From contig NOWV01000083.1 of assembly GCA_003344405.1 (NCBI GenBank), positions 134,250 to 170,118 on the forward strand: a stretch of 35,869 nt of DNA, read 5' to 3'. The notes under the pieces are model-generated. The model saw only the letters and a program-made list of their open reading frames with translations. It searched no databases and was not told the DNA's origin. Numbering within the stretch: position 1 is the stretch's first letter; each line of letters starts with the position of its first letter. The position numbers were made by a program, and so were the translations under genes. The stretch is from Trichoplax sp. H2. Its lineage: Eukaryota. Of this stretch, positions 142-31,900 are shown piece after piece.

Positions 142-552
142 AATCTTCCATATTGATTCTTCTTAAAAGCAGCTTTCCATTAACTAACAAAGTTCATAAG
201 GAGTGCTGTCGGTAATGAGTTTAACTGATTGTGTATAAAACCGAAATACTGGCTATTAAGTTGTTAAGCTCTACAAAGTACTTAGACAGTCTTTGAGAAA
301 TTTCGGTGTTGCAGCTTCTATTTAAGTGTTTTTATCCAGCCCAAAAAAGGTTCTATTGCGTCATGCAAGTTACAAGTTATATAAAATGTACGCAGAAGTA
401 AATAGTAAAGAGAATGGCATCATTGGCATATCGTATGTTTACTTCCATACACAGCATTGTACTGAATTCTATTTTTATTTTTTGCATCGTGTTTGAATTT
501 GATTGGTTGATTGATTTCATTTACAGGGTAATGTACAGTACTTTATACCATA

Positions 553-1010
553 ATGTACAGTACACTGTACAGTACAGTACTGTACGTGTATACTTATGGA
601 TTTCTAGAAATATCCTGGAAGTCCAAGCTGCTGTACTGTACAGTGGATTAGACTGCGCTGTCTACACTACAGCATACAGTACAGTACTACTGTATACTGT
701 ACACTGTACAGTACACCAGTAAGAGTGCATTCTTAATGTTGTACTGTACACTGTACAGTACAGTAGCAACGATTTGTCTACCCTCTATGAGAAAATGGCT
801 ATGCTGCCATTGCTGCGTCATATGTGCGCATCCTCCGAATTTTATACGAATTCACAAATAAAAATAAAACATTACATAATCTAGTCCTACTGTACATGCG
901 CGTAGGTAGGATGCAGTAATGGGCGTGTCTGTTGTGTAGCAAGAGGAGCTGCCTTATAGCAGACATTGCTACTGTACTGTACTGTACACTGTACAGTACT
1001 ATACGGTATA
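553..1010. repeat. Strand-switching pentanucleotide microsatellite (GTACA)n/(TGTAC)n forming GTAC-centred palindromes, cluster 1
   Basis: Runs such as gtacagtacactgtacagtacagtactgtac at 553-775 and 970-1010. The unit GTACA and its reverse complement TGTAC alternate. Confidence 0.9.
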
Positions 1011-1872: not shown

Positions 1873-2465
1873 TATTCATTCTTCGTTCCAGCTAGGACCG
1901 TTTCAACTGCAAACTAAATTAGCAAATAAAAACGATAAAATGCAATAACACAAGCAAAGTATTTCTAATTTACACAGTATTACCCATAGTCTCAGCGGCA
2001 GGGACATTGTAATGCATTGATACGACAGGAATCTGTTAATATACAGCGTAATGAAGTAGGTGATATACTGTACTAGTAGTCGGCGTTGTTTTAATTGCAT
2101 TATTTCAAGAAATGATTGATTTGTACGTATCTACAGGATATGACGTACTGTAGTTAGGCTGTTACACTACGTCTGAATTTAAGCAATTTGTTCTTTGTTG
2201 CCAGCTACGGTATAAGCTCCTATATACTGTATACGCACGCACCGTAAGTTGCATTGCAGCATTTAGGTACGGTAATTAATAGGTAATTGTGGACGACGTA
2301 GAACTCGCTTAAAAGTAAAATGAGTACTGATTAAGGAGTTATTTGTAAATCTTTTGCTAACAGCGGTGTATTTATGAGTATTCATGAGTAAATTGATTAT
2401 ATTTATCAGTAATAAATTGGCACTATAATTGAAGATGCATCTATATGATTCTGGGTTGTAGCAAA

Positions 2466-5400
2466 ATGAGTTCGAAAGGATCTTCACGCTCCTCTGAGGA
2501 AATGAACATCTTTCGTATTGCACCGTATTACTATATTCACGTCATGGATCTGAATACCAACGTGACGCGAGTAGTAAACGGACCAAAGACTTACATACGA
2601 CAGGATAATGAGAAAGTAATTTTTGGACCGGAAAAGATGGTCACAGTACCTCCACGTCATTACTGCATTGTCGAGAGCCCTGTCGTACGTAATAAAGATG
2701 GCAATGTGGTTTTTGATACCTACGGGCAAGCTAAGCTACGACACGCAGATCTTGAAATTCGCTTTTCTCAAGAACCATTTCCGCTTTACCCTGGAGAAGT
2801 TTATAAACAAGCTCCCAAACCGCTTATGGTTGTCGCTGCGAACTCTGCTATTAGACTTAAAGCTATTTTAGATTTTGAAGAAGAGGGAACAAAAGTGAAC
2901 CGTGTAGCAGGGGACGAATGGCTATTTGAAGGGCCAGGTATTTTTTTGGATGCATTGTCATGAAAATATTGATTTTTACATGACTGCACTGTTAATGAGA
3001 ATGGACTTCTATTGACACTCAGGGACTTATATGCCAAGAAAGGAAGTAGAAGTAATCGAACCCGTTCGTGCTACTATAATTCAGCCGAATCAGGCAATCA
3101 AGCTGAGAGCTCGTAAACAAACTACGGTAACGTGTTTATACTTGATAGAATATCTTACATTGTAAACAGGACTATATTTTAGCTAATTAATAAGATATAC
3201 GTAATTGATTAATCGTCAGGATCGAAACGGTGTCGAGCGCGTCACCGGTGAAGAATGGACGGTTAAAAAAGTGGGTGCTTACTTACCCGGTGCATATGAA
3301 GAAGTAATGGGAACATTAGATGCCTACGTCTTGACTGAAAAGGTGCTCGATACAGTTAAACTATGACGCTTTAAAAATGCAACATTCTGGCTACTCTACT
3401 GTATAATTATAATTGAGGCCTAGATCAAGCAAACTGTAGTGGATAGAGAACAAATCTTAAATTCGTTACCACTGTTCATGATTATTATTTATACATTACT
3501 AGAAAGCACTTCACCTGCGTGCTATGCGCACTTTCCGTGATTGCTTCGACATAGAAAGAAAAAATGGTGAGGAATGGCTTGTTACCATGGTTGAATCTGA
3601 AGCTTATATACCTGATGTTTACGAAGAGGTCATACTTACTTTGATTCATACGGAGTTGATATTTATTTTTTAAATTCTTCACCTCTATTGGCTATTTAAA
3701 TAACGGAAAATTTCTTATTCATTAGGTTGTAGGAGTGGTAGATATCACTACCTTAACCAATCGACAGTATGCAGTTATCCTAGATCCCGTCGGCGCCAAC
3801 GGGAAACCACAACTTGGTCAAAAAAAGCTAATCAAAGTTAGTAACTTAATTAATATTGCATGTAAGATCATAATGCAAAGCAAACGATCGGCATAGTTAT
3901 TTAACTTTATATTAATACGCGTATTTGCTTTTTAGGGTGAAAAGTCGTTTTTCTTACAACCAAATGAACGCCTTGAGAGTGGAATTCAAAATGTGTATGT
4001 TCTTGGTGAAGATGAAGGATTGATACTTAAGGCTAAAGAAGAATTTCTTGATACAGAAGATAACAAGACCCCTCGTAAGCCTGGTGATAGGTGGATGATC
4101 CGTGGTCCTATGGAATATGTACCACCAGTTGAGGTTGACGTTGTATCAAAAAGGAAAGCTATTCCTCTGGATGAAAATGAAGGTATTTATGTCCGCGACG
4201 TAAAATCAGGCAAGGTAATATTAGCATAGACTACATATTTTTATATCATTCTTGTATTCGTTATATAAATATCTTTGAACGTCGCTGCGATTTGGTAGCA
4301 AATTCTCGTATTACGCTTAGAGTAATTTAGTTTAAATATCCTACACTTATTTCGCTTGCTCGAAAAATGTTAGGTTAGGTCTATATGCGGCAAAACTTAT
4401 ATGCTTTCTCAAGATGAGGAATTATGGTCTAAAGAATTACCACCAACTGTCGAAGAGTTGTTAATTAGCAATAAAGACCCACTTGCCGACAGAGGAAACT
4501 ATGCAACCAAAACTTCTTCAGCTAAACGTGACAAAACTAAGGTTGTCACGTTCAGAGTGCCACATAATGCGGCGGTACAAATTTATGATTATAAGGAAAA
4601 AAAAGCGAGGTACCGTAATGCTTCGTATTTATATTGATATTAACTTCCGCCAATTAAAGCAATTGCATTCTTTATTACGTAATTTCTTGTTGTATATTTA
4701 GGGTAGTTCTTGGACCAGACTTGGTCATGCTCCGCCCCGACGAACAGTTTACGCAGATTAGCTTATCTGGTGGTAAACCGAAAAGACCTAACCAGATTAA
4801 ATCCTTATGTCTTTTACTGGGGCCGGATTTCTGTACTGATGTGCTTACTATTGAAACAGCAGATCACGCCAGGCTGCAATTACAGTTGGCTTATAATTGG
4901 TAAATCAGTTAAATTTTCTGATTCATTATGTTACACGTTTAGAGAACGCGTTACTAAAGATTTAACAACGATTGTAGGCATTTTGAAATATCTGATAAAA
5001 CTCAAACTAGTTTAGCAAAGCTTTTTGCAGTCCCGGACTTTATTGGAGATGCTTGTAAAGCGATTGCATCAAGAATTCGAGGGGCAGTTGCCAGTGTACA
5101 ATTTGATGATTTCCATAAGGTAATTTTTTTGCATGGGTGAACGTAAAACGTTATCAAAATTTTTAAGAAATTAAGATTTAATGACTCGTGATACGTGATA
5201 GTAATTGTAAGCAATAACGAAATGTTATAGAATTCGGCAAAAATCATCTGTGCTGCAGTTTTTGGATACGATAGCGATCGGAAGCTTGGTAGTCGTTTTA
5301 TCTTTCCTGCTAATAACTTAGCAATTACAAGCATAGATATACAGTCTGCAGAACCAGTAGATCAAAGAACCAGAGATGCCCTTCAAAAATCTGTACAGTT

Positions 5401-6282
5401 AGCTATTGAAATTACAACAAATTCCCAGGAGGCTGCAGCTAGGTATCCTCAGTAACGGCCAAACTTTGTAACTTATTTAGAAGAAACTGATTAAAATCTC
5501 GTCTATATCAGGCATGAAGCTCAAAGACTCGAGCAGGAAGCGAAGGGTCGTTTGGAGCGGCAGAAGATAAGCGATGAGGCGGAAGCTGAGAGATCTAGGA
5601 AAAATCTCTTAGAATTACAGGCTCAAAGGTATTGAAAATACTACTAACCATTAGTAGAATGTTACAAAATCTAACACACACTTTACTATAGCGCTGCTGT
5701 AGAGTCTAGTGGTCAAGCGAAAGCCGAGGCTCAGTCTAGAGCTGAAGCAGCTAGAATTGAGGGCGAAGCCGCAGTTGAACAAGCAAAACTCAAAGCCGAA
5801 GCCCTAAATATCGAAACGGTACTTATATAAAGCGAATACTTCACCTAGAATTAGATATCAAAATGACCATAATTTTTCTGGGATTAAAACTACAGACAGC
5901 TGAACTCGAACGTTTGACTCACGCTCGCGAAGCCGAAATTAAATACGTTAGAGAGCAAAATGAATTGGAAATTTCAAAATCCAAACAAACTGCTATTATC
6001 GAAGTCGAAAAATTCGGAAATATGGTTAAAAGTATTGGCTCTGAAACACTACGTGCAATTGCAGTTGCTGGGCCAGAAAATCAGGTACTTTACAGGATTA
6101 TTAGATTTTTAATTTAATGTCTTTAATTTTCCTACCCTCTTTCATAGGTTAAGCTTCTGCAGTCTCTTGGAATACAATCGACTCTGATTACAGATGGTTC
6201 TAACCCAATTAACCTTTTTAACACTGCATCTGGATTAATCGGTGCAGTTGAACCTCCACTAAAGCGAGAAAAGTTACAGTAG
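2466..6282 (+). CDS. MVP: Major vault protein (MVP), complete gene, 14 coding exons
   Basis: Hand-spliced exons, all GT-AG and phase-consistent: 2466-2938, 3022-3126, 3220-3342, 3503-3628, 3726-3837, 3936-4214, 4374-4609, 4701-4898, 4978-5119, 5231-5441, 5512-5629, 5692-5818, 5896-6093, 6148-6282 (TAG stop). The translation is colinear with vertebrate MVP along its full length. Exon 1 gives [51 protein letters not shown]...RHADLEIRF...PFPLYPGEV...[11 protein letters not shown]. Later exons give [73 protein letters not shown]...[54 protein letters not shown]...[118 protein letters not shown], and the coiled-coil/shoulder-cap region through [27 protein letters not shown]. An in-frame ATG at 2445 is an alternative start. 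Confidence 0.95.
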
Positions 6283-7065: not shown

Positions 7066-7328
7066 GGTATACTGTACAGTACAGTACAGTATTCCGTTTC
7101 AAAGGCATACTGTACTGTACTGTGCAGTAAGTCGTTTTAATTTACAGTAGTTATAATCTTCCCGCAGCTATTATATATTCGTAATTATACTATGTTATGT
7201 TGATTAAAGTTCTTGTCTACTTAAAAATCTATAACCACTAATTTTAGTCGAATATTCAGTACAGTACAGTAGGCCAGGCCAACCCAGCTTGCAAAAACCT
7301 GGTACTACTGTACAGTACACTGTACAAT
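7066..7328. repeat. (GTACA)n/(TGTAC)n palindromic microsatellite, cluster 3 (two blocks, 7066-7130 and 7257-7328)
   Basis: ggtatactgtacagtacagtacagtattccgtttcaaaggcatactgtactgtactgtgcagta. The inverted halves flank a short spacer. Confidence 0.9.
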
Positions 7329-7398
7329 ATTCATCGCTGAAGCAGCTCTATCTATTCTCTTGCCTCTACTGAACCTAATACCAAGTTTCATAAAGTTT

Positions 7399-7445
7399 GA
7401 TTAAGATTTAAACTACTGTACTGTATAGTAGTTTAAATCTTAATC
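7399..7445. repeat. 47-nt near-perfect hairpin palindrome
   Basis: gattaagatttaaactactgtac|tgtatagtagtttaaatcttaatc. The arms are reverse complements over about 20 nt, around a ctgtactgta centre. Confidence 0.85.
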
Positions 7446-7630
7446 TGTACATATTGGGTGGAAAATCATTGTTTGGAGCTCTGCCCACTATGCCAAGGTG
7501 ATAATAAAAAGTATAGTACATAATAAGCGTATTTGCAGCTTGACAAGTTCTAGCCTGCTGCTGCCTCAATGTACAAACCTTCGACAGGTGTAACTAGCAC
7601 TAGCTTGGTTCGAGACGGAGGGACATTCGG

Positions 7631-7924
7631 CCGGCCTGCAGTACAGTACAAGAGACCAAAGACCGCGCCTGCATCTACGGTACAGTACTGTACTGTACAG
7701 TACAGTAGGTTTTATTGTGCTAGGCCGCCTAGGCGTACTGTACAGTACTGTACAACTGTAGACGTGACTCCCAGGCTAGTGAAATTTTTGTACTGTAGCC
7801 CGTGACTGTACTGTACCGCACAGTAAAAAAAGGTGTCCACTGTTGTACTGTACTGTACAGTAGAATACGATACTACTGAAGTAGTGTACACTGTAGTGAC
7901 TGTACCATGTACTGTACAGTACAT
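7631..7924. repeat. (GTACA)n/(TGTAC)n palindromic microsatellite, cluster 4, the largest 5' of the Mondo gene, interleaved with GC-rich spacers
   Basis: cagtacagtacaag...ggtacagtactgtactgtacagtacagtagg...gcgtactgtacagtactgtacaactgtag...ttgtactgtactgtacagtag...catgtactgtacagtacat. It also contains the palindrome taggccgcctaggcg. Confidence 0.9.
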
Positions 7925-8092
7925 ATCCGATTCAGTCATCAGTTTAGGTCTCAAGGTAAACGGCGAAATCTAATCTTTCACTATTTATTTATGTCGTTGT
8001 ACAGTATGTAGTTTATTCTTTCTGTTTTTATCGCGAAAACAGAAATAAATTTGATTAGCAAATCCGTTAGTAGGAATACGAAAATCTTACAG

Positions 8093-11000
8093 ATGGAACG
8101 AATGATTAATACAAATTTGCGACCAGTAAACTCTAATAATGGCAACTTATCTTCTGGCTACAATTTTGCACGTTTTGGACAAATGCCGAAGCAATACAAC
8201 TTTTTCAATCGCTATACTCTGTCCGATAAGGTTGCCGATGGTGATTCTTTAGCTCAATTACTCGACTGTTTGAGATTGGAATATAGGTATATTGTGATGT
8301 ATATATTCTAATCCAAATTATACCATTTCAAATACAGTATAAGGTATTAAAAAGATTTCAAGGACAACGCCTCAGTACATAATTTGCGGTACTGTACGTG
8401 TAGTAATAAGCAATTTTTGTATTTTAGACAGTACTGTATACTGTACGTATGTCCCGAAAACTTCAGCATGTTCAGTACTTACAAAGGGGCACAGTTTCAT
8501 AATTTACTGTACTGTATTCTATACCGTGGACCGACCGGTTAATTTATTCAGCTCGAAAAATTCATAGAAATATAACATCGACCAATTAATAATTTCCTAA
8601 TTTTTTAGTTAATTATTAAACCTACAACTCTTTTCATTTTAGTTATTATTTAGGCAAATTTGATGTCTGAACGCATTCACTAGAACTGTACAGTACAGTA
8701 CAGTGTACACTGCACAGTATAGCTGTATTTTAACCAGCACGCGAACTGTATCATACTGTGCTTCCTGCTGTACCGTATTGTACAGTACAGTGTTCACCTT
8801 ATGATCACGTATTCAATGCACTAGTTGGTTGCCATGTCATAAACTGCAAGTGTTTTCCTTATAGTTAAGTACAGTAATTGCCATACACTAAGTATTTCAA
8901 AATTATTAATACGCAATTTGCTGTCACAAAATGAATTACTAGCCTAAAATTGCAATGAATTATTATCATTAAAATATACGATGGCTTGTTTCTGACATTA
9001 GCCCCTTCTACAGTATATCGCAAATCCCCAGTTCTCCTATATTTAGTGATATTTAGACTAGTTAATGTAGACTGTACAATGTACAGTCTACATTCGTGGT
9101 ACATTAATTAAGTTAAGTTAACGTTGTCGTGTAGCACATTTATAAACACAAAATATTAACATATCATGAAATCTTTATTATGGACTATTATCGACTGGTT
9201 TGAAACCCCTTTTTTCTTATATTAGTGACACCTTGCTAACTCCGAGATGGAAGAACTTCAAAAGTCAAAATCTAAAATGGGAACAAAAACGGAGATTAAA
9301 CAACATCATTTGGAGAGCCTGGCACATGCAATGTAAGTTGTATTAAAGTTAACCCTCTGATGCTTACAACAGCGCAAAGTTCTTGCAATAATGCTCTTGT
9401 CTCATGCTATACAATTTTCAATAAATATTCAAAATTTTATGACTACATAATTACACTACGATTGTATCATAACCCGAGGTTATTTACTATTTATGCTGCA
9501 ATCGTTAGATAGATTTATTGCGCTATACTGCTTCATTTTCTACGCGTATTAGTCACTTTTGCCGTAACTTATCTTTATGTAAAATAATGTCGTTAGCAAT
9601 GTGTGAAATATCCAATGTACTATTAAGTTCCAAGTAGTATACGAAGTGGTAGATTCAAGACATGCCAACCGATAAAAGATAAAGAAGTACCTTATAGTAC
9701 TAAGCTGCCATATATGCTGCGCTTCGTGAATCGTATCCAACAGTTTATAAATATAATCAGAAGCTGCCAATGATCTTATTGATCTTTTGGATAATGTTCA
9801 TGAAGTTGTTGAACCTGTTTAATTGTAGAATCTTTAGTAAAATGCCACAATCTGTGCGGTATTACATAACCTTGATAACAGTTTTTATGTTGGGACGGAA
9901 GAGAAGAGCACAGTATACTATCAGAAACGTATCTATCGTTGCAGTTTTGATGTGCTACGTTCGACATTACGACTAACAAGGTCTTCCTATTTAACAGTTC
10001 AAAAGCATCGTAACTTGCCATTCTGTAAATTTGCCATCCCTTTCCTTGAAAATATGCATAATAAACCTCAGGTATTGACGTAATAAAAAGCTCTATATTT
10101 AAAGAATTAAAGTAAACCGTTGTACGGATAGCCATGACTACCAATCTATCCTAATTTTAATAATTGATCACTGTATTACATCAAGCAATGACAGGAGCGT
10201 ATCATAAATATTCTTAAATATTTTTCTACATGAAGGCAATCGTAGTAGAAGGTGAACATTGGCGTCGAAGGCTTGATGCCATTGCGTCAGAATATAAACG
10301 ATGGAGATGTTATTTTGGGCAGGTACTTGTATGATCTAGTCGCTAGATTACGAATCTTACCTCTAAAAATGAGATTTTTGTCTTTATTAGCTAATTGTAA
10401 TTTTTGATCTTTTCGAAATTTAGACTGTTACACCTCCTGAAACAGAGACACAAGTCATTCTGGGAAATGTCTGTTATATTTTGTCTACATCATCATATAA
10501 CGTTAAATCGATATCGTTTTATAGATTTTTACCTTATTGCTACGTTTTATGTGCTTATATAGGATGATGAATTATCGCAACAACTGAATGATGCATCCAA
10601 TAAATTGATCAAAGAGCAATTGATAGGGTTAGTCAACTAAGATATTATTTTGTAAGCAATAGGTCTTGAAGCTGCTTCATAATTTGAATACCCACGTTAT
10701 TGCTGAGAATAATCATTTCAGCATTTTCATTGATAATCTTAATTAGGCCAGGGAATGATAGCGAAATATTCCAAAATTCAGCAGATGGTAAGTGTCACAG
10801 TTGCAGATTAGAGGTAGTATAACAGCAGTAAGTTATCGTAACGGGTATTCACTGCTAGTTATTGTAATTTTTAGATTTTTTTTCGTATTGAGTTGTAAGT
10901 CGAGTACTGATTTCGAATCTTTCATTACAGTTTTCATGTTACCAGATACGCTCTTTTCCAGTCTAGCACCTGTAGACGACTTCAATTCTACCGACGAAAG

Positions 11001-13879
11001 ACTTATGGGTAAGAAAGTCTTCGGTAGTTATTATCATGAAGACGTAGCAAAAGAATAATAATAGATTACGTTGTTCTTTAATATAGATACAGCAGATTTA
11101 ATCCAACCAACCCTTGATCAATTGCAGCCGTCTGTTGCAGATTTATTGGCTACGATGGAAGATAACGGTGAGAGCATTATTTCGATATTAAAAAATGCAT
11201 GCTTTAACAATTGACTATTTAATGCGAATTGCAGTTAGCTAAATTTCTTTCCATGTAACCATGTCTTTACGACAAAAACAGATAACTACTTCTTAAAAAA
11301 ATTGGACGAAACTCCTCCGTTTTCCTTTACCGCTCAGCCTCAAGGTTTAGCAGCTACTCAAAATCTGACACAATCCCAAAAAAATAAAGCACCAATTTCA
11401 TATCATCCAATTGACGAGGAGCATTACAAGCATGTAGTGCCAGCAAATGTTGAAATTAATCAAAATGTTACAAACCATGGTCATCAAGAATTAGGGCTTA
11501 TGAATGTTAGTAACTATAACTGCTCTGCCATCGACGCTAATGCTACTGGATCATCCAACTCTATCCAGAATGTACCGCGTGCTGATAATGTTCATTTAGC
11601 TATGCATCAGAACCGCTTTAACCAGCAATCCTATCAATTACATAACATAAGTATGGAATCTACAACTACTTTTATTAAAACATCTAACAATCAGCTATCG
11701 GAATTAGAGAATCAGATACCCCAGGATTCCTTTCATGTATACCCAAACGTCGACAACAGGCAACGTCATCCAAACCTAGGAGCCGGAACTACCAATCATA
11801 ATAATCATCCACCTAAATTAAACAATATTTCAGAAATTCAAACGAGATTTAGACCTAGAGCTCCAGATCAATCTTCGAAATCTCCATCAACTCCTGCCCA
11901 TATTTTGTACAATCCTGTAAATAATCAGCAAGCAATGGTTTCTGAAGGCGCTGTTCCAGAATCTCCTGGCCGCGGATTTAGTAAAGAAAATCAGCCTATT
12001 CCCAGTCAATCAAGTTATACCTTTTGGAATGAACAAACTCAAGATTCTAGTGATAAATTTTTATCGCAACGGCCAGCCGCCGCCAGTCAGGAAAGAATTG
12101 CCGCCAACACCGCTACTGATAATTCTTTCCTAGCTCGATTGCTTACGAATTCAAATTTTACTCAAGAATCGAGACAATATCAACGTCATTCAATCGAGAG
12201 ACACTACGTAGCTAAGCCAGTACCAATTGCGCCTGCTCAAAATAAGGTACAGATGAACAATTCGCCTTCGTTGGGAAATTTACAGTATGACTGGAATCAG
12301 ACGCGAGAATCATCGAAAACCTTAGATAATGTAACTATATCTACTGAATGCTTTGCCATTTTTGGTTGTATTACACCCATAAGGCTTCATCACTTACTAA
12401 TTTACGATTTGCTCAATATTAAGAATGAATCTACGTCTTTGCCGGTTAGCCCTACTCATACTGGCTCCATAGCACACGGTAAGTAAGCAACGCTATAAAC
12501 TTAACTGTTCACCATCTTGCACCCATGTAATCTTTTATTATTGTCCCTTAGTTGTGGAGCCGACTGGATTCGCTAAGATTGAATCGCATAGTGGCTATAT
12601 GAATAGTATTCAGATGACCAGCAAAGCTAATATGAATACATCGTCGGAAAGCCAGACTAAGCCGTCAGTTACTAATGAGGTTGTTTAATTAAACCTTGAG
12701 TTTATAATAGCGAAAATGACAAGCTGCAGGATAAGAGTGTTGTTTTTAGACTATATGGGTAAAATCTTAGATAGTTATAAACATTTCTCATTTAGGAATA
12801 TCGAAGGAGATCGCATCAGTCTTCCGAGCAGAAACGCCGTGGCAATATTAAGGTTTTCGGCCTTTTTTATGATGAAATCACTAGCACAATATAAATCTCG
12901 ATGACGTAACTAATGATTACTATTAATTTATTAGCTAAGATTTGAGAAACTGCAGTCTCTAGTACCATCGTTAACTTCAGTGCACAATGCAAGAAACAGT
13001 AAAGCAACTATTCTTCAAAAATGTCAGTAAGATTAATTTATGAGTATTCTTAGATGAAATATGGCTAAGTAATGGTAACTCTAGTTTTTTTCTATTTTCT
13101 GTCACCTAAATTAGCAATTGATTATTGTAAAACCTTAACCCAAGAAAAACAAGCGATGCAAGCTGAAATTCAGAGACTTAAAAGTAGAATTTTAGAGTTA
13201 AATGAGGGTATTAAGTACGTAAAATTCTATGTTGTGATAACGTAATGTTTTAACGGAGATACTATTACTCATACCAATTTATATACGTTGCATGTATAGT
13301 AAATGTCATCAACAATTACCTGTGACTGGTGCTACTGTTACCCAGCAGCGAGCTGATCAATTACGGCAAAAATTTGACGAATACGTTAAAAAGAGGACTT
13401 TAAGCAATTATAAATTCTGGATTGTATCCTTTTCGCTTAGGATTATACATCTTTCGAGTGGCAATCCCTCAGAATTTACTTTCTTCTGTTTGTTTATATA
13501 TTTTATGTTTACTCTCAAATGTAATCTGTGATTCTTTAACGATATAAAACTGCTACAGTTTAGCATCATTATTAGGCCGTTGTTCGAGTCATATAGCAAC
13601 ACTGCTGTAACATCAAGCTATGATGAATTCTACCGAACAATGCAAGCATGGATGGATCAGCACTGCACTCTTGTTCAATTGAGACCAGGTATGATTGCAT
13701 GACCAGGTAATTGCTATCTGTTTAACATAAAGATTAATGCAAGAACTAATCTGTTTCCTTTCATTTCAGTTGTCATGGCCGCGCTTTGTCAGCTAAGTAC
13801 CGATACGGATATACTATCGAATCCATCATTAGTTCCTGTTCAGGCTGTAGAAGCTGCAAAAAAATTATTAGTTGAAAAT
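8093..13879 (+). CDS. Mondo-family bHLH-leucine-zipper transcription factor (MondoA/ChREBP/MLXIP homolog), complete gene, 16 coding exons
   Basis: Exons, GT-AG and phase-consistent: 8093-8287 (alternative in-frame ATG at 8051), 9226-9340, 9884-9929 (least certain), 10227-10320, 10563-10627, 10747-10787, 10931-11007, 11088-11167, 11345 or 11351-12478, 12552-12678, 12796-12851, 12935-13022, 13115-13214, 13290-13423, 13569-13688, 13770-13879 (TAA). The conserved blocks match the Mondo conserved regions. MCR I-like: SLAQLLDCLRLEY. MCR II: RWKNFKSQNLKWEQKRRLNNIIWRAWHMQ (cf. KWKNFKG...RLNNAIWRAWYIQ). MCR III: AIVVEGEHWRRRLDAIASEYKRWRCYF. MCR IV: FMLPDTLFSSL. MCR V: ADLIQPTLDQLQPSVADLL. Exon 9 is a long Q/N/S/P-rich central exon, the 394-aa ORF in the track. 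The basic region is SHQSSEQKRRGNIK, followed by the HLH (LRFEKLQSLVPSL...ATILQK), the zipper (IDYCKTLTQEKQAMQAEIQRLKSRILELNEGI) and a DCD/WMC-like C-terminus (KCHQQLPVTGATVTQQRADQLRQKFDEYVKKRTLSNYKFWIFSIIIRPLFESY...MQAWMDQHCTLVQLRP...ILSNPSLVPVQAVEAAKKLL). Confidence 0.9.
8390..8800. repeat. (GTACA)n/(TGTAC)n-related repeats scattered in Mondo intron 1
   Basis: Short copies at 8390-8446 and 8505-8520. A long block at 8685-8800: aactgtacagtacagtacagtgtacactgcacagtatagctg...gctgtaccgtattgtacagtacagtg. Confidence 0.8.
9064..9094. repeat. Perfect 14+14 hairpin palindrome in Mondo intron 1
   Basis: aatgtagactgtaca atg tacagtctacatt. Confidence 0.85.
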
Positions 13880-16800
13880 TAATCACAAAGTAAATTTAAA
13901 TTTAATTTGGGATTAATTTTTACGAGTAACTTGTATTCATATAGCTTTGCCACAACAGTCTAGACTATAATCTGGATGATTCAAACCGGTGTTCTAATTA
14001 ATTTAATATTATATATTCATGTAAATATCAATAACATCAATTGTGTGTTGCAGCTTTTAATTTTTTTAATTCTATCTCTTTTGTGTTAATTATTAAGATA
14101 CAAAAATTGATTTAATATAACTAGTGTACCAAATGGACAACAAGTAAAAGATTGTATATATAAAAATATATGTACTGTATATGTACTAGATAACTGGTAC
14201 ATATAAACGTTATAGTCAGTTACTTGCCGCTTAAAGTGGTTATTCGTATTTTTAATAACTAGAGTTAGTCGGTCAAGTCGCTATGCATGATAATATTCAC
14301 AAAGCGTTTACAATGAAATCGATAGTCGATATTTAAAAGTAACTTTCGAATTCAGTATGCATACGGTATTACACAATTGATATGCACGCATCCTCACCCT
14401 ACTATAGCATCGTGGCTGTATACGCGTATATATACGTATGCTGTATTTATGTTACAAGATTTACAATAAATTCTTTCTTTTATCGTTCGGCAAACGGTTG
14501 GGTCGCAATACTATATATAAAACATGCTTAACGTAGACAATAATTTAATATTATAATAGTACTGTGTGCATACTAATGTAAAGTTAACAATGTAGGATCG
14601 TACAATTGTATCTTCAGATTTCGAAATATAATTGAATACGTATAAGAGGAGGTATTTACTGTAGGCTTCAGCTAGAATGCCATGAAATCTGTCAAAGTTT
14701 TTTAGAACTTAAGGTTTTACATAATCTAATTGATTTTCAGTTATAACTTGCGGTTAATATATCGTTACTCTAGAACCTACTATAAATTTATATAATACCG
14801 TGATCATTCGTTTTTCTTTACACTTCACGAAAGCTTCATAAATTGTAATGCTTACCGCATCTATTAGAGAATTGTATCCGAGTTGTTTATTATAAACTCC
14901 GAAATTCTGTTATCTAAAATCCATCCGCTGCATGTTTGCATAGATACAATATGAAATTTATACTTGTAGTAGGCCAACGCGGTAAGGAAATAATTTTAGT
15001 ACAATTCTACATTTCCTTTCTTAATGTACGTATACTGTACATCAGAGTACTTTGCTACTAACATCACCAAATTGAAGTAAATTGCATAACTTAGACAACA
15101 TCGAAAGTAGCCTTTCTTAGGGCTTTGCTTCTAGATGGCTTCTCATCTTTTTTTTGGCGAAAGGAATTACCTGATATACACAATCATCTGAACAAGACTG
15201 ATTCTAGATGTAAGAATCTTGTGACATTATATGTAAAGTACAGTAGAATGAGTTGATAAGTGCGCAATACAAAGTACTGCACTCGGTAATTGCTGCATTA
15301 AGATGATATATGTTTGGGCCATCCCTTAAGATCTATCTAGATCTCTCCGATATTTATGCAAGATTGCAATAGAGACTATCCTAATTCTGAATTTCTTCCG
15401 CATCGTATTCGACAGTGATCGCATCTAATTCTCAATCTAGCGTACGACCACGCATGCTACATATCTATCCAATCTACGGAAGCTGATATCTTATTTGAAC
15501 ACGGTCTCGAATAGTTTAATAATCACATACAATTATATATATTATTAATGTATAAATTGATTTGAATGCACAATGGGGATGAGATAAATCTATTAGTGGT
15601 ATTTTGTAATTGTTAGAAATAATAATTTAATTAGAGCAAGATAATTTAACTGCTTGCCCGATTGTTGGGGCGATCAGCACAATGCGTATATAGAACTGAT
15701 TGCTTTTGTTGATATATTGTGGTAGTTGCCGAATCGGTTATAAAGAAGGTTCATCCGTAAATCAGTGATTTATCTAGCTTATGTTACTAAGTCAGCCAGT
15801 ACCTAATAATTTAATGAAATTCTTTGTTTTGTAAGAAAAGTGTAATAACTTTGTCAGTACACATTTGATAAAGATTTACTTCGAATATTTAGAAGCAAGC
15901 ACCATGATATTTAGGATAGTTTAATCATTGAAGAAATTTTATAATCGGAATCTATCGTTGCCCGCTAAATAATTAGGCGTCTGGATATATAAATTGATTG
16001 TTAAAATAGATGAAAAGGGTCTAAGGCCTGTCCCTTTAGTAGCCTTTAGCACTAAGCGTCAATGCTTGCATTGTACATTGTACAATAACTTTCAGCAGTT
16101 TTGTTGCTCACTGTCAATTGATTAAAACTATTAAAATGATACTGTTTTTAGTACAATAAAATTAACCTCATGTTATTAGATGCTAAAGTTGAACTGTCAT
16201 ATCGGTACTCAATATAAAAACTCAATCCATAAATTAATAAACTTACAATTAAGGTAATAGATATTGATACAGTGTAGTACATAATATAAAATTAAAGTAC
16301 AGTACTGTAAGGGTATATCAGCTGCAGTTATCCCATGCAGCATGTATAAAATGCACAAATAAGTACGAAATCTTCAGTAAGGATATTGCTGATAGAGTCA
16401 ACTTCTTTTAATAAGGTTAGCTGGCATATTTAACGTAAGTTCGCCAAAAAATATGCTGAGTATACTATATATAGACAGATAGATATGCGTATCGATACAC
16501 TAATACTGTACAAATCATTCACATCCACATCTTAAATAACAATCATAATCAACCACACATTAAAAACCAGAGCCCGAACTAGCAGTCGTAATTGCATAAA
16601 GGATCAGACTACTTGTTATATTCGGTTGTTTACGAAATTTTAAGTCGTAAGTATAGCATTCGCATGTATTTGTAGTCTTTTATGAATAGCTATTTATACT
16701 TATATCTCGCGATCGATACGTAATATTCGCGTCTTGTAATTCTTCCAAAACATGTTGAGGCAATCGTCCTGTGACAGATATTGCGTAACATCCTCTCGTG

Positions 16801-18546: not shown

Positions 18547-18965
18547 GTTCGTCCATTGATAGGCGTAAAACTTTGAAAAATTTTGGCTAATAAAATTTGA
18601 AAGGTACAGCAGCAGATAAAAAGAAGCTCGGTTTAGTAGCAGCAATATCTGTAAAGTGAGTTAAATCAAATCTTTATAGTAGGGTCTCTACTGTACAGTA
18701 CAGTACACCGTACAATACAGTACAGGACTTTAATATAGTAAATGGTGACACTGTACAGTACTGTACTGTACAGTACTGTATACGGGTACAGTACGTACCG
18801 TACAGTACAGTACGGGTACTGTACTGTATGTCCAGTACAGTACTATACACTGTACACGGTATGCTCAGTACTGTAGGACACTGAAGACAGTAGCACAGCG
18901 GCAGCAGTGCTACTGCCATCACAACTTGCAAGCACAAAAGGAGATTAGAAGACGAAATTACAAAA
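18547..18965. promoter_or_regulatory. Putative bidirectional promoter shared by SPT4 (minus) and the L10K-like gene (plus); almost wholly occupied by a GTACA/TGTAC palindromic microsatellite
   Basis: The two start codons, 18546 on the minus strand and 18966 on the plus strand, lie about 420 bp apart and point away from each other. The 18690-18890 interval between them is almost pure (GTACA)n/(TGTAC)n. Confidence 0.5.
18690..18890. repeat. (GTACA)n/(TGTAC)n palindromic microsatellite, cluster 5, filling the SPT4/L10K divergent promoter
   Basis: ctactgtacagtacagtacaccgtacaatacagtacagg...cactgtacagtactgtactgtacagtactgtatacgggtacagtacgtaccgtacagtacagtacgggtactgtactgtatgtccagtacagtactatacactgtacacgg. 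Confidence 0.9.
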
Positions 18966-23009: not shown

Positions 23010-23440
23010 CGTACATACTGTACAGTACAGTATGTACTAGCATACTGTACTGTACTGTACAGTACATTACAGCGTAAACATGGCTGAAACAACACCTTAT
23101 TTTCTGTTTACGGTACTGAATAAGGTGGTGATCCTTACTACTGTACTGTACTGTACACTGTACACTGTACAGTACAGTACTGTAAAAGAAAATTACTGCC
23201 TGTACTGTACTGTACAGTACTGTAGTCTACAATACTGTACAGTACAGTACTACATGGTTACAGTACTGTATACTGTAGAGGTTTTTTTCTTACCTCTAGG
23301 CTAGCCCATAATGCAGTACAGTACTGTACACACTACACTGTGTACAGTACTGTACTGTACAGTAGAGTACAGTACTGTACACTAATTTTGAATACTGTAC
23401 AGTACATTACACTGAGTTTAGTACTGTAGAGCGAATGCGC
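23010..23440. repeat. (GTACA)n/(TGTAC)n palindromic microsatellite, cluster 6, ending about 240 bp 5' of the Tudor-PHD gene ATG
   Basis: Three dense blocks at 23010-23070, 23140-23280 and 23312-23440, e.g. ctgtactgtactgtacactgtacactgtacagtacagtactgtaaaag...tgtactgtactgtacagtactgtag...atactgtacagtacagtactacatgg. Confidence 0.9.
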
Positions 23441-23678
23441 ATCGCATTTTATTCCTTATTTAACTCGACACTATCACTATTATCAGTGGTCCTGTCCATC
23501 AAGAACATTAAATATCAGTAAAACAGTCATCAGACTCAGCATCAGCTATCAACTAATCGCTAATATCTATATTTTATCTAATTGTGAACATTATATCTCA
23601 AGAGCTTTACTAAAACAGGACGAAGACCTTTTAGCATCGCGCCATATTTCAGGTTTTGTTAACACCGTAGTAAGATGA

Positions 23679-26600
23679 TATGAACCTCAACAAGAAATTT
23701 CCACATGCTATCAATGATGTTATTATCGTCAAATGCCAGAACAATTACTATTATGCGAAAATAAAAAGCATCGACAAACGACGTCGCAAGTGTAAGGTCT
23801 TATTTGATGACAAGTCTACAGATGATCTACCCTTTAGTGATATCTACAGCGGTAAGTTCTTCATTTAACTGCAATATTGCCTCATATTATATGTGCTCAC
23901 TCACTTCATCGCCGACTCCAAATAATTTGTTATAAAAGTTACCACTAAATCCAATGTTCTCAGAAATTGTGTCTCTTTTTACTCGAGAATATTTTGCAGC
24001 GTCGCATGTAGAAAGTACCTTAGCACTGTATTACATTTCAAATTGAGATTATTTTCTATTAATGGTGGATCATTATAAAGCATCTCTTGAATGGTGTGAT
24101 ATTGCTCTACTGTACTATTATGTGCAATATTTTCAATGTAATTCCATCGATTGGTGACATACAGTATTACTTTACGTTAGCAGTGAGTGGATACCAATAA
24201 TTACAGTACTGTACAGCTGCAAGTCTAGTCTTTACTCTCTATTGTCTTTGTCATTTCTATCAGTATCTTTCGAGTTTACAATATATAATTAGACATACGC
24301 ATTCTGTAATACCGTTAGTATCTCATTTTCCTTTTCTACTGTATGCTTTTCAACATGTAATGAATACCGAATAAGTGTGTATAATACTGGTAGAGTAACA
24401 GTAAATATAGGATATGTCGTTTTTACCAATGTTCATGAAACTACTTCGAATCAGACAATTAGACATTTATTTTATTTAATTTTACTATACAGATTGTGAG
24501 TACATAAAACCACCTTTGTAAAAAAGAGTGTCGTACGGTACTGCACGGCTCCATACTGATACTGTACAATCTTTTACAGTACTTCAGTGGGCATGCTGCA
24601 CAGTGCACAGGTATACTGTATACTGTACTGTACGTTCAGTACAGTACAGGTCATCGATAGCCTTTGTGCTCGCATTGATTCAAAGAGAAAGAGTTGTTCA
24701 GTACTGTACACACCGTACGTACTGTACACACCGTACGTACTGTACGGTACTATACGGTTTTGTTCCGTAGATGTGTGGCTGTATTATAAGAGTAGATGCG
24801 TTATATGCATTACCTAGTATAACTACAGCCTTTAGCCTTGAGTGCAGCACATCTTTTTTGTCTTTGCACTATTGCTTGCTAAACAATAGACGTAAAATGC
24901 AGCGTGCTTGTAGACTTGGCTAATTTTATTTCTTTATTTATTAAAAAGTAAAAAAAGTATATACCATATATAATATATACCTGAAATTATTCTATGAAGT
25001 TGAAGATCTTAAAAGCGCTTGTTTGCTATCACATTACTCAGCTTGGAAGAACTGCCAAGTTGATAACTTACAGTAGTGTAGAAAATACAGTACAGTACTG
25101 TACTGTATATTAATTGTGCAAAGTGTACAGTACAGTACACCATACAGTACAGTACTGTGCACTGTACAGTACAGTATTCCTTCTCGGTTACTTCTGGACG
25201 ACCGTCTACAGTACATTTTATTGATATACTGTATTTTGGATTTTACTGTAACGTAAAGCTAGCTCATAGTGATAGTGTGAATTGTATCTGTTCCAGTATC
25301 AATCAGCACCGCTTAATAACAAACTAACGTTAGTATCAGTAATAAAATAACGCATCACACACATCAACTTCTTTATCCTTGACTGCCGGAGTTGTGAGCT
25401 TGCGAGTGACTGATTCCATCATCCATTGTACTATTAGGAATAAATATTACTATTAACTGAATGCGATGTACAGTATTACAATGAATCCACTTAGCATCGG
25501 TGTTCATTCATTAAAGCTAGAATTTTTAGAAGGGCAATTAACTCCAATTTTTGCCGTTACTTCTATAAATTTTTAATGTTGGGGCTGTTGTTGTTCGGAT
25601 TTTCTATTTACTCAAGTTGGCGATACCACTACGGAAATCGTCTGCATCGTTTGTAAGAGTGGCTCTTCTGAATCACCTAACGAGATTGTCTTATGTGATC
25701 GATGCAGTATTGGTAAGTAATAATGATTAATTAAAATTTTAGTGCTATATTCTATTGAAGTCTTCATGCATGCAGCGTAAAAGAGTTTGAAATCATTACA
25801 TGTTTAAACGTTTAATAAACAAGAAAGTATCAATTAATCCTATGGCAATCAATTTTAGCCTATTACAACGTCAATGTAAAAGTATTTACTGTTAGTGTAG
25901 TCAAAAATTTCATTAATCTTAATTAATTAAGTAACAGTACTGGTGCTGATGGGAATACGTACATGCGCGTATATTATGGTATCGCATTATAAAATTATAC
26001 TGCATGATATCTTTTATAAGTTCTAGCGTAAGGTGGTATCAGAATTAGTACAGTACATTAGTTAGTTACCTGTTGCATACAGGTAATAATTTTTTTATTT
26101 ACCATCAATACGTAAAGTCGTAGACTTTGTTCTAATAAATAAAATCTAATAGATAAAAACATTAATTTAAATTTTTAAATACAGTATAGCTGAGTGATTG
26201 AGTTGTAGTGGATGATATGTCACAGATGACATTACGACAATTTGGTCATTTTTTCTATTTAGGATATCATCAACAGTGCCATTCACCACAGATACCAGAA
26301 TCGGTTTTGAAGCCGGACGTTCCGTGGTTATGCCATTATTGTCAGTCGAGTGAAATTTGCCCATATTTTGTAAAAAATCCTTTTACTGACGATAAAGGAG
26401 GAAATTTTAATAATAAGGTAACGTACCATATATGCATCGATATTATATTCAATAATTAACCTCAAGATAACGCACATTACTGTAGGTAAATTAAAATTAC
26501 AGTATAAGTACAAAATTATCCTATATTTCACTTATAATTAGCGAGCGACGGGATTTATATGATATTTTTGTAACAATCAGAAAAAGCCAATAGATAAAAA

Positions 26601-28450: not shown

Positions 28451-28573
28451 ATGGGAGTATTTTTATTGTATTTCTGATGTAGTTTTCACTGGATAATTTA
28501 CACTTATATGGTTTTGGTGTTTAGCAAAATCCATTAAGAATTTCTTTTTCTAAATTGGATTATAATCTTAAAG

Positions 28574-31809: not shown

Positions 31810-31900
31810 TGTACAGTACGTTCTGTACAGTATACTGTACTGTACTGTAACTGTAAGAACTAAAAAGGACTGTACCGTACAGTACAGTCCTGTACGTACT
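31810..31900. repeat. (GTACA)n/(TGTAC)n palindromic microsatellite, cluster 7, about 100 bp 5' of a candidate ATG-containing first exon at 32008-32040
   Basis: cttgtacagtacgttctgtacagtatactgtactgtactgtaactgtaag...ggactgtaccgtacagtacagtcctgtacgtactac. Confidence 0.85.

What the first reader, a model, noticed from the sequence alone, without database searches (positions are those of the whole stretch)
8093..13879. Complete Mondo/ChREBP-family glucose-sensing bHLH-Zip gene with all five Mondo conserved regions and a DCD-like tail
A 16-exon model reconstructs MCR I-V (including the RLNNxIWRAW nuclear-export motif and the EG.HWRRR...EYKRWR block), a Q/N/S/P-rich linker, the basic region SEQKRRGNIK, the HLH, the leucine zipper and the C-terminal KFWIFSIIIRPLFESY...WMDQHC dimerisation/cytoplasmic-localisation domain. 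This is a single-copy invertebrate ortholog of MondoA/ChREBP. It shows the organism is a metazoan and gives a full gene model with unusually small introns (60-250 nt). Exon 3 (9884-9929) and the NAGNAG acceptor choice at 11345/11351 are the uncertain parts.
Basis: partly seen in the sequence, partly recalled or inferred. Interest (0 to 1): 0.6.

Follow-up and report, generated by a model that had tools for sequence, protein, structure and literature searches.

The report
Trichoplax Mondo/ChREBP sugar-sensor gene, already annotated
This is the placozoan (Trichoplax) copy of the Mondo/ChREBP sugar-responsive transcription factor gene, which is real and intact but already annotated in GenBank and discussed in the literature, so the only additions here are corrections to the exon model.

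Summary
The gene is real. Window 8093-13882 (+) holds an intact, all GT-AG, 18-exon gene for an 871-aa Mondo/ChREBP (MLXIP/MLXIPL) bHLH-Zip protein. If one 93-nt segment is kept, the translation is 100% identical to GenBank RDD41124.1, [quoted passage not shown]. Trichoplax Mondo has also been described in print (PMC3177325, PMC3323566). The finding is therefore already known.

The family assignment and the metazoan inference hold. Several details do not:
- "Exon 3" (9884-9929) has no splice sites and breaks the reading frame.
- The exon-10 acceptor is at 11282, not 11345/11351.
- Introns 1 and 2 are 939 and 665 nt, not 60-250 nt.
- RLNNIIWRAW is the 14-3-3 docking helix (MCR III), not the export signal.
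- The canonical MCR I motif (HSGxFMxS) occurs nowhere in the window. The gene has MCR II-V plus MCR6, not "all five".

A related placozoan contig (Logan SRR30664516) shows third-codon-position-biased divergence in exons and conserved splice sites. It also indicates that 12331-12423 is an intron that the public 902-aa model retains.

The function is inferred by homology, not tested: a glucose-metabolite-gated, 14-3-3-bound, Mlx-partnered E-box/ChoRE activator.

The parts
8093..8286 (+). Exon 1. ATG at 8093 is the first in-frame ATG after the stop at 8009-8011. The 3' end encodes the first half of MCR II (DSLAQLLDCLRLEY). Residues 19-28 (LSSGYNFARF, 8147-8176) are at best a degenerate trace of MCR I.
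   Evidence: identical to RDD41124.1; aligned to ChREBP 5f74_B from residue 52 onward; no HSGxF motif.
9226..9332 (+). Exon 2. MCR III core: TPRWKNF...RRLNNIIWRAWHMQ, the 14-3-3 docking helix (9290-9331).
   Evidence: 5f74_B; the 14-3-3-bound ChREBP peptides 4gnt_B/9gcp_B match residues 85-102; invariant columns; PMC3323566.
9998..10071 (+). Exon 3 (true). MCR III extension FQKHRNLPFCKFAIPF and the start of MCR IV (HNKPQ). It joins directly to exon 2.
   Evidence: Gapless alignment WRAWHMQFQKHRNLPFCKF / WRAWYIQYVQRRKSPVCGF; phase 1 matches.
9884..9929 (+). This is not an exon; it lies inside intron 2.
   Evidence: Flanked by TT/TA. Inserting it, or the GT-AG-consistent 9882-9928, gives stops at aa 121 or 144. 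It is absent from RDD41124.1.
10236..10322 (+). Exon 4. MCR IV: AIVVEGEHWRRRLDAIASEYKRWRCYFGQ.
   Evidence: Invariant sites W/Y/W/R are present.
10424..10468 (+). Exon 5 (45 nt, TVTPPETETQVILGN), in the variable region. It is in the public model, but its inclusion is not independently verified here.
10563..10627 (+). Exon 6, variable linker between MCR IV and MCR6.
10747..10787 (+). Exon 7.
   Evidence: Aligned with conserved GT/AG in the related contig L001.
10931..11008 (+). Exon 8. MCR6, the putative transactivation / G6P motif: FMLPDTLFSSL (10784-10965 spans the junction).
   Evidence: DTLFS invariant; 78% identical and gap-free versus L001; PMC3323566.
11087..11167 (+). Exon 9. MCR V: TADLIQPTLDQLQPSVADLL.
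   Evidence: The LQP invariant is present.
11282..12330 (+). Exon 10. N/S/Q-rich linker. Contains an LxxLL nuclear-receptor-box-like motif, FLARLLTN (12127-12150), and conserved islands. The acceptor is at 11282, not at 11345/11351.
   Evidence: 11282-11344 differs from L001 at 1/1/8 sites by codon position. The AGs at 11349-50 and 11352-53 are not conserved in L001. Also.
12331..12423 (+). Intron 10 (93 nt, in frame and stop-free). It is retained as coding sequence in the public 902-aa model RDD41124.1.
   Evidence: GC is 0.32, like introns (0.31) and unlike exons (0.39). Versus L001 it is 56% identical with indels, 91 nt long, with GT..AG kept and no codon periodicity (15/12/10). Retaining it in L001 gives 31 stops, while removing it gives an open frame to the shared stop.
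12424..12478 (+). Exon 11.
   Evidence: 84% identical and gap-free versus L001.
12552..12679 (+). Exon 12, the linker preceding the basic region.
12796..12852 (+). Exon 13. Basic region EYRRRSHQSSEQKRRGNIK, with the His-Glu-Arg pattern of CACGTG-type E-box binders.
   Evidence: Pfam HLH; 0/0/12 differences by codon position versus L001.
12935..13022 (+). Exon 14. Helix 1, loop, and the start of helix 2.
13115..13214 (+). Exon 15. End of helix 2 and the leucine zipper (LTQEKQAMQAEIQRLKSRILELNEGI).
13300..13423 (+). Exon 16. Start of the DCD/WMC domain (QQLPVTG...YKFWI).
   Evidence: 87% identical versus L001.
13559..13688 (+). Exon 17. DCD/WMC (FSIIIRPLFESY...AWMDQHCTLVQLRP).
13770..13882 (+). 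Exon 18. End of the DCD/WMC domain (VVMAALCQLSTDTDILSNP...) and stop TAA at 13880-13882.

Best explanation
Window 8093-13882 (+) is the Trichoplax (Placozoa) ortholog of the Mondo/ChREBP (MLXIP/MLXIPL) gene.

Shown from sequence: it has 18 GT-AG exons and an 871-aa product. The N-terminal module carries MCR II, MCR III (the 14-3-3 docking helix), MCR IV, MCR6 and MCR V. A roughly 390-aa N/S/Q-rich linker follows, with one LxxLL-type motif. The C-terminus is a bHLH-leucine-zipper followed by the DCD/WMC domain. The gene is under purifying selection.

Inferred by homology with mammalian MondoA/ChREBP and Drosophila Mondo:
- The protein heterodimerises with Mlx through the zipper and DCD.
- It shuttles between cytoplasm and nucleus under control of the MCR II export signal and 14-3-3 bound to MCR III.
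- It is held inactive by contacts between the inhibitory MCR II-IV part and the activating MCR6/MCR V part.
- It is released when hexose phosphates rise.
- It then binds paired CACGTG-like E-boxes (ChoREs) to activate sugar-metabolism genes.

The canonical MCR I is missing, so the regulatory logic may differ in detail from the mammalian proteins.
For: - Identity to GenBank RDD41124.1 apart from the 93-nt segment.
- PDB ChREBP 5f74_B, E=6.8e-28, gapless across three exon junctions. The 14-3-3-bound ChREBP peptides match residues 85-102.
- Pfam HLH, E=1.3e-12.
- Alignments with arthropod and cnidarian Mondo proteins show MCR II-V, MCR6, bHLHZ and DCD.
- All 24 family-invariant sites listed in PMC3323566 are present, with the right spacing.
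- Against a related placozoan contig (L001), structured exons differ at 31/18/122 sites by codon position. All 11 comparable introns keep GT/AG (one acceptor shifted by 3 nt). The same exon structure gives an open frame to the same stop, and bHLHZ-DCD is 90% identical at protein level.
- Mlx, the obligate partner, was recovered from Trichoplax (PMC3177325).
Against: - No RNA evidence was available here, so the start codon, exon 5 and exon 6 rest on the public annotation and on frame and splice consistency only.
- MCR I, which the literature reports as required for glucose-dependent transactivation in mammals, is not detectable.
- The S/T preceding DTLF in MCR6 is Pro.
- Nothing about glucose responsiveness, 14-3-3 binding or Mlx binding was or could be tested.
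Confidence: 0.95

Rival explanations
1. The public 902-aa model is the true product: 12331-12423 is coding, or a regularly retained in-frame intron, rather than a spliced intron.
For: The 93 nt are a multiple of three and free of stops in Trichoplax. The MAKER annotation used RNA-seq evidence (PMC6057997) and kept the segment.
Against: Its GC content is intron-like. The 31 encoded residues are hydrophobic and Cys-containing inside a polar linker. GT..AG is conserved in the related contig L001. There the segment is 91 nt, shows no codon periodicity (15/12/10) and has indels, and reading through it creates 31 stops.
Confidence: 0.2
2. The gene is a Mondo ortholog whose regulation has diverged. 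Without MCR I it may be constitutively regulated or respond to a different cue, rather than being a glucose sensor.
For: No HSGxFMxS anywhere in the window. The N-terminal 50 residues do not align to other Mondo proteins. MCR I is described as required for glucose transactivation. The Hydractinia homolog P0006 also lacks MCR I.
Against: MCR II-V and MCR6, and all reported invariant positions, are kept under strong constraint. That is hard to explain unless the sensing module still works. An unannotated upstream exon outside the detectable motif cannot be fully excluded, because a good acceptor, cttacag, sits directly before ATG 8093.
Confidence: 0.25
3. It is a decaying pseudogene or a chance assembly of motif-like ORFs.
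Against: The frame is open across 18 GT-AG exons. Divergence from a related species is biased to the third codon position, 31/18/122. The domain order is complete.
Confidence: 0.01
4. It is another bHLH-Zip factor (Mlx, Max, Myc, MITF/TFE) rather than Mondo.
For: The bHLH-Zip alone also matches MITF, Max and Myc at E of about 1e-5 to 1e-3.
Against: The N-terminal MCR block matches only ChREBP (E=6.8e-28). The DCD with Mondo-invariant sites, the length and the domain order are all Mondo-specific.
Confidence: 0.01

Closest known systems
GenBank RDD41124.1, Carbohydrate-responsive element-binding protein [Trichoplax sp. H2] (EukProt EP00114_P005361); genome of Kamm et al. 2018 (PMC6057997)
   Same: Identical over all 871 residues of the model built here, with the same start, stop and 16 of the 17 introns.
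   Different: The public model reads 12331-12423 as coding (+31 aa, 902 aa). Comparative evidence here says this segment is an intron. H1 and H2 genomes are near-identical (PMC6057997), so the window could come from either lineage.
Trichoplax adhaerens Mondo as used by McFerrin & Atchley 2011/2012 (PMC3177325, PMC3323566)
   Same: Same gene family member in the same genus. Its bHLHZ and DCD were already aligned and discussed there.
   Different: Those papers date the full MCR I-V set only back to cnidarians. They do not state whether the Trichoplax N-terminus was recovered. Here MCR II-V and MCR6 are shown to be present and MCR I absent.
Vertebrate ChREBP (MLXIPL) and MondoA (MLXIP)
   Same: MCR II-V, MCR6, the 14-3-3 helix, bHLH-Zip, DCD/WMC and the domain order. 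About 50% identity over bHLHZ-DCD. ChREBP residues 85-190 align without gaps apart from one 3-residue insertion. The LxxLL-type motif (LARLLT versus LxQLLT) is as in ChREBP and non-vertebrate Mondo.
   Different: No MCR I. Pro instead of S/T before DTLF. The N/S/Q-rich linker is unrelated in sequence. This is a single pre-duplication gene; the MondoA/ChREBP split is gnathostome-specific (PMC7003098).
Arthropod and cnidarian Mondo / MLX-interacting proteins (P0002-P0008: Ornithodoros, Nymphon, Hydractinia)
   Same: 33-47% identity over the conserved blocks and the same architecture. The Hydractinia protein likewise lacks MCR I and has PDTLFSS in MCR6.
   Different: Arthropod proteins have a clear IHSGHFMVS (MCR I) and SDTLFS.

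Membership tests
Mondo/ChREBP (MLXIP/MLXIPL) | MCR I (HSGxFMxS) | tested here: not met
   No match to HSG.F or a relaxed pattern in six frames of the whole window. The N-terminus is unaligned. The nearest string is LSSGYNFARF. This feature is not universal in the family: Tribolium diverges here and Hydractinia P0006 lacks it. Its absence therefore qualifies membership but does not exclude it.
Mondo/ChREBP (MLXIP/MLXIPL) | MCR II (hydrophobic, export-signal-bearing helix, SLTKLFECMSLAYS-type) | tested here: met
   DSLAQLLDCLRLEYS aligns to ChREBP and arthropod MCR II; S52, L53, L56 and S65 are invariant.
Mondo/ChREBP (MLXIP/MLXIPL) | MCR III invariant sites P104/W106/F109, R121/L122/N123/N124/W127/R128, F145/P148 | tested here: met
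   TPRWKNF, RLNNIIWR and CKFAIP are all present.
Mondo/ChREBP (MLXIP/MLXIPL) | MCR IV invariant sites W170/Y181/W184/R185 (VxxEY[KH]KWRx[FY][FY]) | tested here: met
   EGEHWRRR...IASEYKRWRCYF.
Mondo/ChREBP (MLXIP/MLXIPL) | MCR6 [ST]DTLF[ST] motif | tested here: met
   PDTLFSS: the DTLFS core is invariant. The residue before D is Pro rather than S/T, as in Hydractinia.
Mondo/ChREBP (MLXIP/MLXIPL) | MCR V (IQPxLxxLQP, P291 invariant) | tested here: met
   ADLIQPTLDQLQPSV.
Mondo/ChREBP (MLXIP/MLXIPL) | bHLH domain followed by a leucine zipper | tested here: met
   PF00010, E=1.3e-12, 47.8 bits against a cutoff of 20.7. Alignment to MITF/Max/Myc bHLHZ structures extends through the zipper. An L/M/L/L heptad is seen by inspection.
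Mondo/ChREBP (MLXIP/MLXIPL) | C-terminal DCD/WMC domain with invariant L735/P736, W801, R812/P813, L819, L822, P832 | tested here: met
   QQLPVTG; W-x10-RP-x5-L-x2-L-x9-P in AWMDQHCTLVQLRPVVMAALCQLSTDTDILSNP reproduces the published spacing.
Mondo/ChREBP (MLXIP/MLXIPL) | Obligate heterodimer partner Mlx present in the genome | not testable with these tools
   Mlx is not in this window. The literature reports that the Mlx bHLHZ was recovered from Trichoplax (PMC3177325).
Mondo/ChREBP (MLXIP/MLXIPL) | Glucose (hexose-phosphate) dependent nuclear accumulation and transactivation; ChoRE binding | not testable with these tools
   Requires experiments. It is inferred only from conservation of the module.

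The most novel reading that the evidence does not exclude
Placozoan Mondo, and perhaps hydrozoan Mondo, represents a minimal sugar-sensing module that works without MCR I and without the S/T preceding DTLF in MCR6. That would imply either that MCR I was added later or lost, and is dispensable for the ancestral hexose-phosphate switch, or that the placozoan protein is regulated by a different input. A smaller point: the public 902-aa model carries a retained intron, and the linker holds a few short islands conserved across placozoans, including LARLLT, that are candidates for cofactor docking.
Probability: 0.25. Interest if true: 0.3.

Novelty: already known. Interest (0 to 1): 0.12.

Why it matters
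It matters little as a discovery. The gene is annotated in GenBank, and Trichoplax Mondo is already part of published analyses of how the Max/Mlx network evolved.

This check adds three practical things:
- A corrected gene model of 871 aa and 18 exons, with the public model probably retaining one intron.
- A clear statement that the placozoan protein has MCR II-V and MCR6 but no recognisable MCR I.
- Evidence of purifying selection from a second placozoan lineage.

This could be useful to anyone using Trichoplax to study the origin of animal sugar sensing. It does not open a new question.

Tried and rejected
Rejected.
They are rejected because 11282-11344 is conserved as coding sequence and the downstream AGs are not conserved in L001.
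- A search for an MCR I exon anywhere in the window, by regular expressions in six frames and by tblastn of five homolog N-termini, found nothing.
- The look-up of encoding contigs with P0001 returned no record.
- The search for homologous proteins with the N-terminal 279 aa returned nothing, not even P0001. This is a limit of the word index, not evidence of absence.
- The exhaustive representative search with exon 1 (64 aa) gave only two irrelevant hits, one of them a tandem-repeat protein. So there is no information on conservation of the first 50 residues.
- The Rfam and tRNA scans of the window were empty.
- I could not identify the species behind Logan sample SRR30664516. No contig covering exons 1-6 of the related placozoan was obtained.
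- Structure prediction was not run. It would not change the verdict.

Full report
**What is in the sequence**

The window is AT-rich eukaryotic DNA, about 34% GC. On the + strand between 8093 and 13882, three-frame translation shows a chain of short open segments bounded by AG and GT. Joined, they give 18 exons, all GT-AG, a 2616-nt reading frame and an 871-aa product. The exons are 8093-8286, 9226-9332, 9998-10071, 10236-10322, 10424-10468, 10563-10627, 10747-10787, 10931-11008, 11087-11167, 11282-12330, 12424-12478, 12552-12679, 12796-12852, 12935-13022, 13115-13214, 13300-13423, 13559-13688 and 13770-13882. The stop codon TAA is at 13880-13882.

**Is it more than chance, and what is it?**

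- Pfam finds an HLH domain at residues 671-724 (E=1.3e-12, 47.8 bits against a cutoff of 20.7).
- Among solved structures the best relative is the ChREBP N-terminal region in complex with 14-3-3 (5f74_B, E=6.8e-28). It aligns to residues 52-154 across three of my exon junctions, with a single 3-residue gap.
- The short ChREBP peptides crystallised with 14-3-3 (4gnt_B, 6ygj, 9gcp_B) match residues 85-102.
- The C-terminal part matches MITF, Max and Myc bHLH-Zip structures.
- In the large protein collection the top hit is [quoted passage not shown], 902 aa, 97% identity and 100% coverage. MLX-interacting proteins of ticks, a sea spider and Hydractinia follow.
- The Trichoplax protein is GenBank RDD41124.1.
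- If 12331-12423 is left in, the window's translation is letter-for-letter identical to it.

The organism is therefore Trichoplax (Placozoa). H1 and H2 genomes are nearly identical (PMC6057997), so I cannot say which of the two. The gene is already annotated.

**Literature**

- They also used the Trichoplax Mondo in their analysis of MCR, bHLHZ and DCD conservation (PMC3323566).
- Erives and Fritzsch place the MLX/MLXIP duplication after the ctenophore split. They describe the family as absent from choanoflagellates, and they place the MondoA/ChREBP duplication in stem gnathostomes (PMC7003098).

It also makes the finding already known.

**Domain check**

I aligned the product with four Mondo proteins and compared it with the site lists in PMC3323566. 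The following are present:

| Region | Sequence in this gene |
|---|---|
| MCR II | DSLAQLLDCLRLEYS |
| MCR III | TPRWKNF...RRLNNIIWRAWHMQFQKHRNLPFCKFAIPF |
| MCR IV | HNKPQAIVVEGEHWRRRLDAIASEYKRWRCYF |
| MCR6 | FMLPDTLFSSL |
| MCR V | TADLIQPTLDQLQPSVADLL |
| Basic region | RRRSHQSSEQKRRGNIK |
| HLH and a short zipper | (present) |
| DCD/WMC | QQLPVTG...KFWIFSIIIRPLFESY...AWMDQHCTLVQLRPVVMAALCQLSTDTDILSNP |

- All 24 positions reported as invariant in the family are present. The DCD positions show exactly the published spacing: W801, then R812/P813 at +11, L819 at +7, L822 at +10 and P832 at +20.
- An LxxLL-type motif, FLARLLTN (12127-12150), corresponds to the LxQLLT "nuclear receptor box" described for ChREBP and non-vertebrate Mondo.
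- The canonical MCR I is missing. HSGxFMxS is reported as otherwise invariant. Neither that motif nor relaxed versions occur in any frame of the 35.9-kb window, and tblastn with homolog N-termini finds nothing upstream.
- The Hydractinia homolog also lacks MCR I.
It is the 14-3-3 helix of MCR III; the CRM1 signal is in MCR II.

**Gene-model corrections**

Inserting it, or the nearest GT-AG version 9882-9928, produces stops at residue 121 or 144. Without it, WRAWHMQ-FQKHRNLPFCKF aligns residue for residue with WRAWYIQ-YVQRRKSPVCGF of ChREBP.
2. *The exon-10 acceptor.* It lies at 11282, as in the public model.
3. *The 93-nt segment 12331-12423.* It behaves as an intron.

Points 2 and 3 rest on a lucky find. 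Searching with the C-terminal third returned a 376-aa ORF product from a Logan assembly (P0032). Its 3.8-kb contig (L001, sample SRR30664516) is collinear with window 10720-13884 at 65-87% nucleotide identity in exons. It evidently comes from a different placozoan lineage.

*General support for the model from L001*
- Exons are 78-87% identical and gap-free in the structured parts. Introns are 46-66% identical with indels.
- Differences in structured exons fall 31/18/122 on codon positions 1/2/3. That is the signature of purifying selection in exactly this reading frame.
- All 11 comparable introns keep GT and AG, with one acceptor shifted by 3 nt.

*The 11282 acceptor*
- The stretch 11282-11344 differs at 1/1/8 sites by codon position, so it is coding.

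*The 93-nt segment*
- In L001 the equivalent segment is 91 nt long and 56% identical, and shows no codon periodicity (15/12/10).
- Its GC content of 0.32 matches introns (0.31) rather than exons (0.39).
- Splicing L001 on the same 12 exons gives an open frame to the same stop. Retaining the 91 nt gives 31 stops.
- The public 902-aa model therefore probably contains a retained intron, and 871 aa is the better product. In Trichoplax the segment is in frame and stop-free, so a retained-intron isoform remains possible. Only RNA data can decide.

*Introns.* Their lengths are 939, 665, 164, 101, 94, 119, 143, 78, 114, 93, 73, 116, 82, 92, 85, 135 and 81 nt. "60-250 nt" therefore fails for the first two.

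**How it most likely works**

*Shown here:* an intact, constrained gene with the full Mondo architecture except MCR I.

*Inferred from the family* (PMC3323566; the 14-3-3 complexes):
- The protein pairs with Mlx through the zipper and DCD.
- It cycles between cytoplasm and nucleus under the MCR II export signal and 14-3-3 bound to the MCR III helix.
- Its activating part (MCR6/MCR V) is masked by the inhibitory part (MCR II-IV) until hexose phosphates rise.
- The His-Glu-Arg basic region then reads CACGTG-type E-boxes in carbohydrate response elements.

Whether this holds without MCR I is unknown. I give about 0.25 to materially different regulation.

**Surroundings**

- Upstream on the same strand is a major vault protein gene, with Vault repeats and the shoulder domain in ORFs between 2445 and 5452.
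- Downstream on the + strand, exons at 23674-23865 (Tudor-like, below Pfam cutoff), 26202-26456 (PHD-like, weak) and 29584-29838 (zf-MYND, E=9.6e-07) may belong to one chromatin-reader gene. Whether they do, and whether the long Q/P/S/N-rich ORF at 27056-28450 belongs with them, was not established.
- Non-coding DNA is peppered with a pentamer repeat built of GTACA and GTACT units. GTACTGTACAGTAC has 41 matches with at most one mismatch, against 0.01 expected. One cluster lies just upstream of the Mondo start and another lies in its first intron.
- No Rfam family or tRNA was found.

**Verdict**

The gene is already known and annotated. Interest is low. The useful residue is a corrected exon model and the note that placozoan Mondo lacks MCR I.

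Noticed in passing
window 530-990, 1850, 7070-7920, 8680-8790, 18690-18840, 21310, 23010-23430, 24620-25180, 31810-31900: Clusters of an imperfect pentamer repeat made of GTACA and GTACT units, often forming the palindrome GTACTGTACAGTAC. There are 41 matches with at most one mismatch, against 0.01 expected by shuffling. All lie in non-coding DNA, including the roughly 1 kb upstream of the Mondo start codon and its first intron. The origin and any function are unknown.
   Followed up: partly
window 2445-5452 (+), probably extending to about 6100: The upstream neighbour is a major vault protein gene. Pfam matches: Vault_2 E=2.2e-23, Vault E=2.1e-18 and MVP_shoulder E=8e-11, in separate exon ORFs.
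   Followed up: partly
window 23674-29838 (+): Downstream exons encode a Tudor-like segment (23674-23865, below the Pfam cutoff), a weak PHD-finger end (26202-26456) and a MYND zinc finger (29584-29838, E=9.6e-07). A 464-aa Q/P/S/N-rich ORF with no Pfam family lies between them at 27056-28450. They may form one chromatin-reader gene; no gene model was built.
   Followed up: partly
window 12331-12423: The public protein RDD41124.1 (902 aa) reads this 93-nt segment as coding sequence. Comparison with a second placozoan indicates it is an intron, so the deposited model probably has a retained intron.
   Followed up: yes
L001 1-3798 (Logan SRR30664516), collinear with window about 10720-14200: A contig from a different, unidentified placozoan lineage carries the orthologous 3' two-thirds of the gene with the same 12 exons. 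Protein identity is 90% in bHLHZ-DCD and 44% in the linker. The linker has short conserved islands: MDETPxFSFTAQPQG, LSELxNQxPQDSF, DNSFLARLLTNSN and AKPVPIAPAQNKVQMN.
   Followed up: partly
window 8080-8092: A good acceptor-like sequence (tcttacag) sits immediately before the annotated ATG at 8093. An upstream non-coding or coding exon is therefore possible, but none could be identified.
   Followed up: partly
It comes from the mechanical ORF list only and there is no evidence that it is a gene.
   Followed up: no
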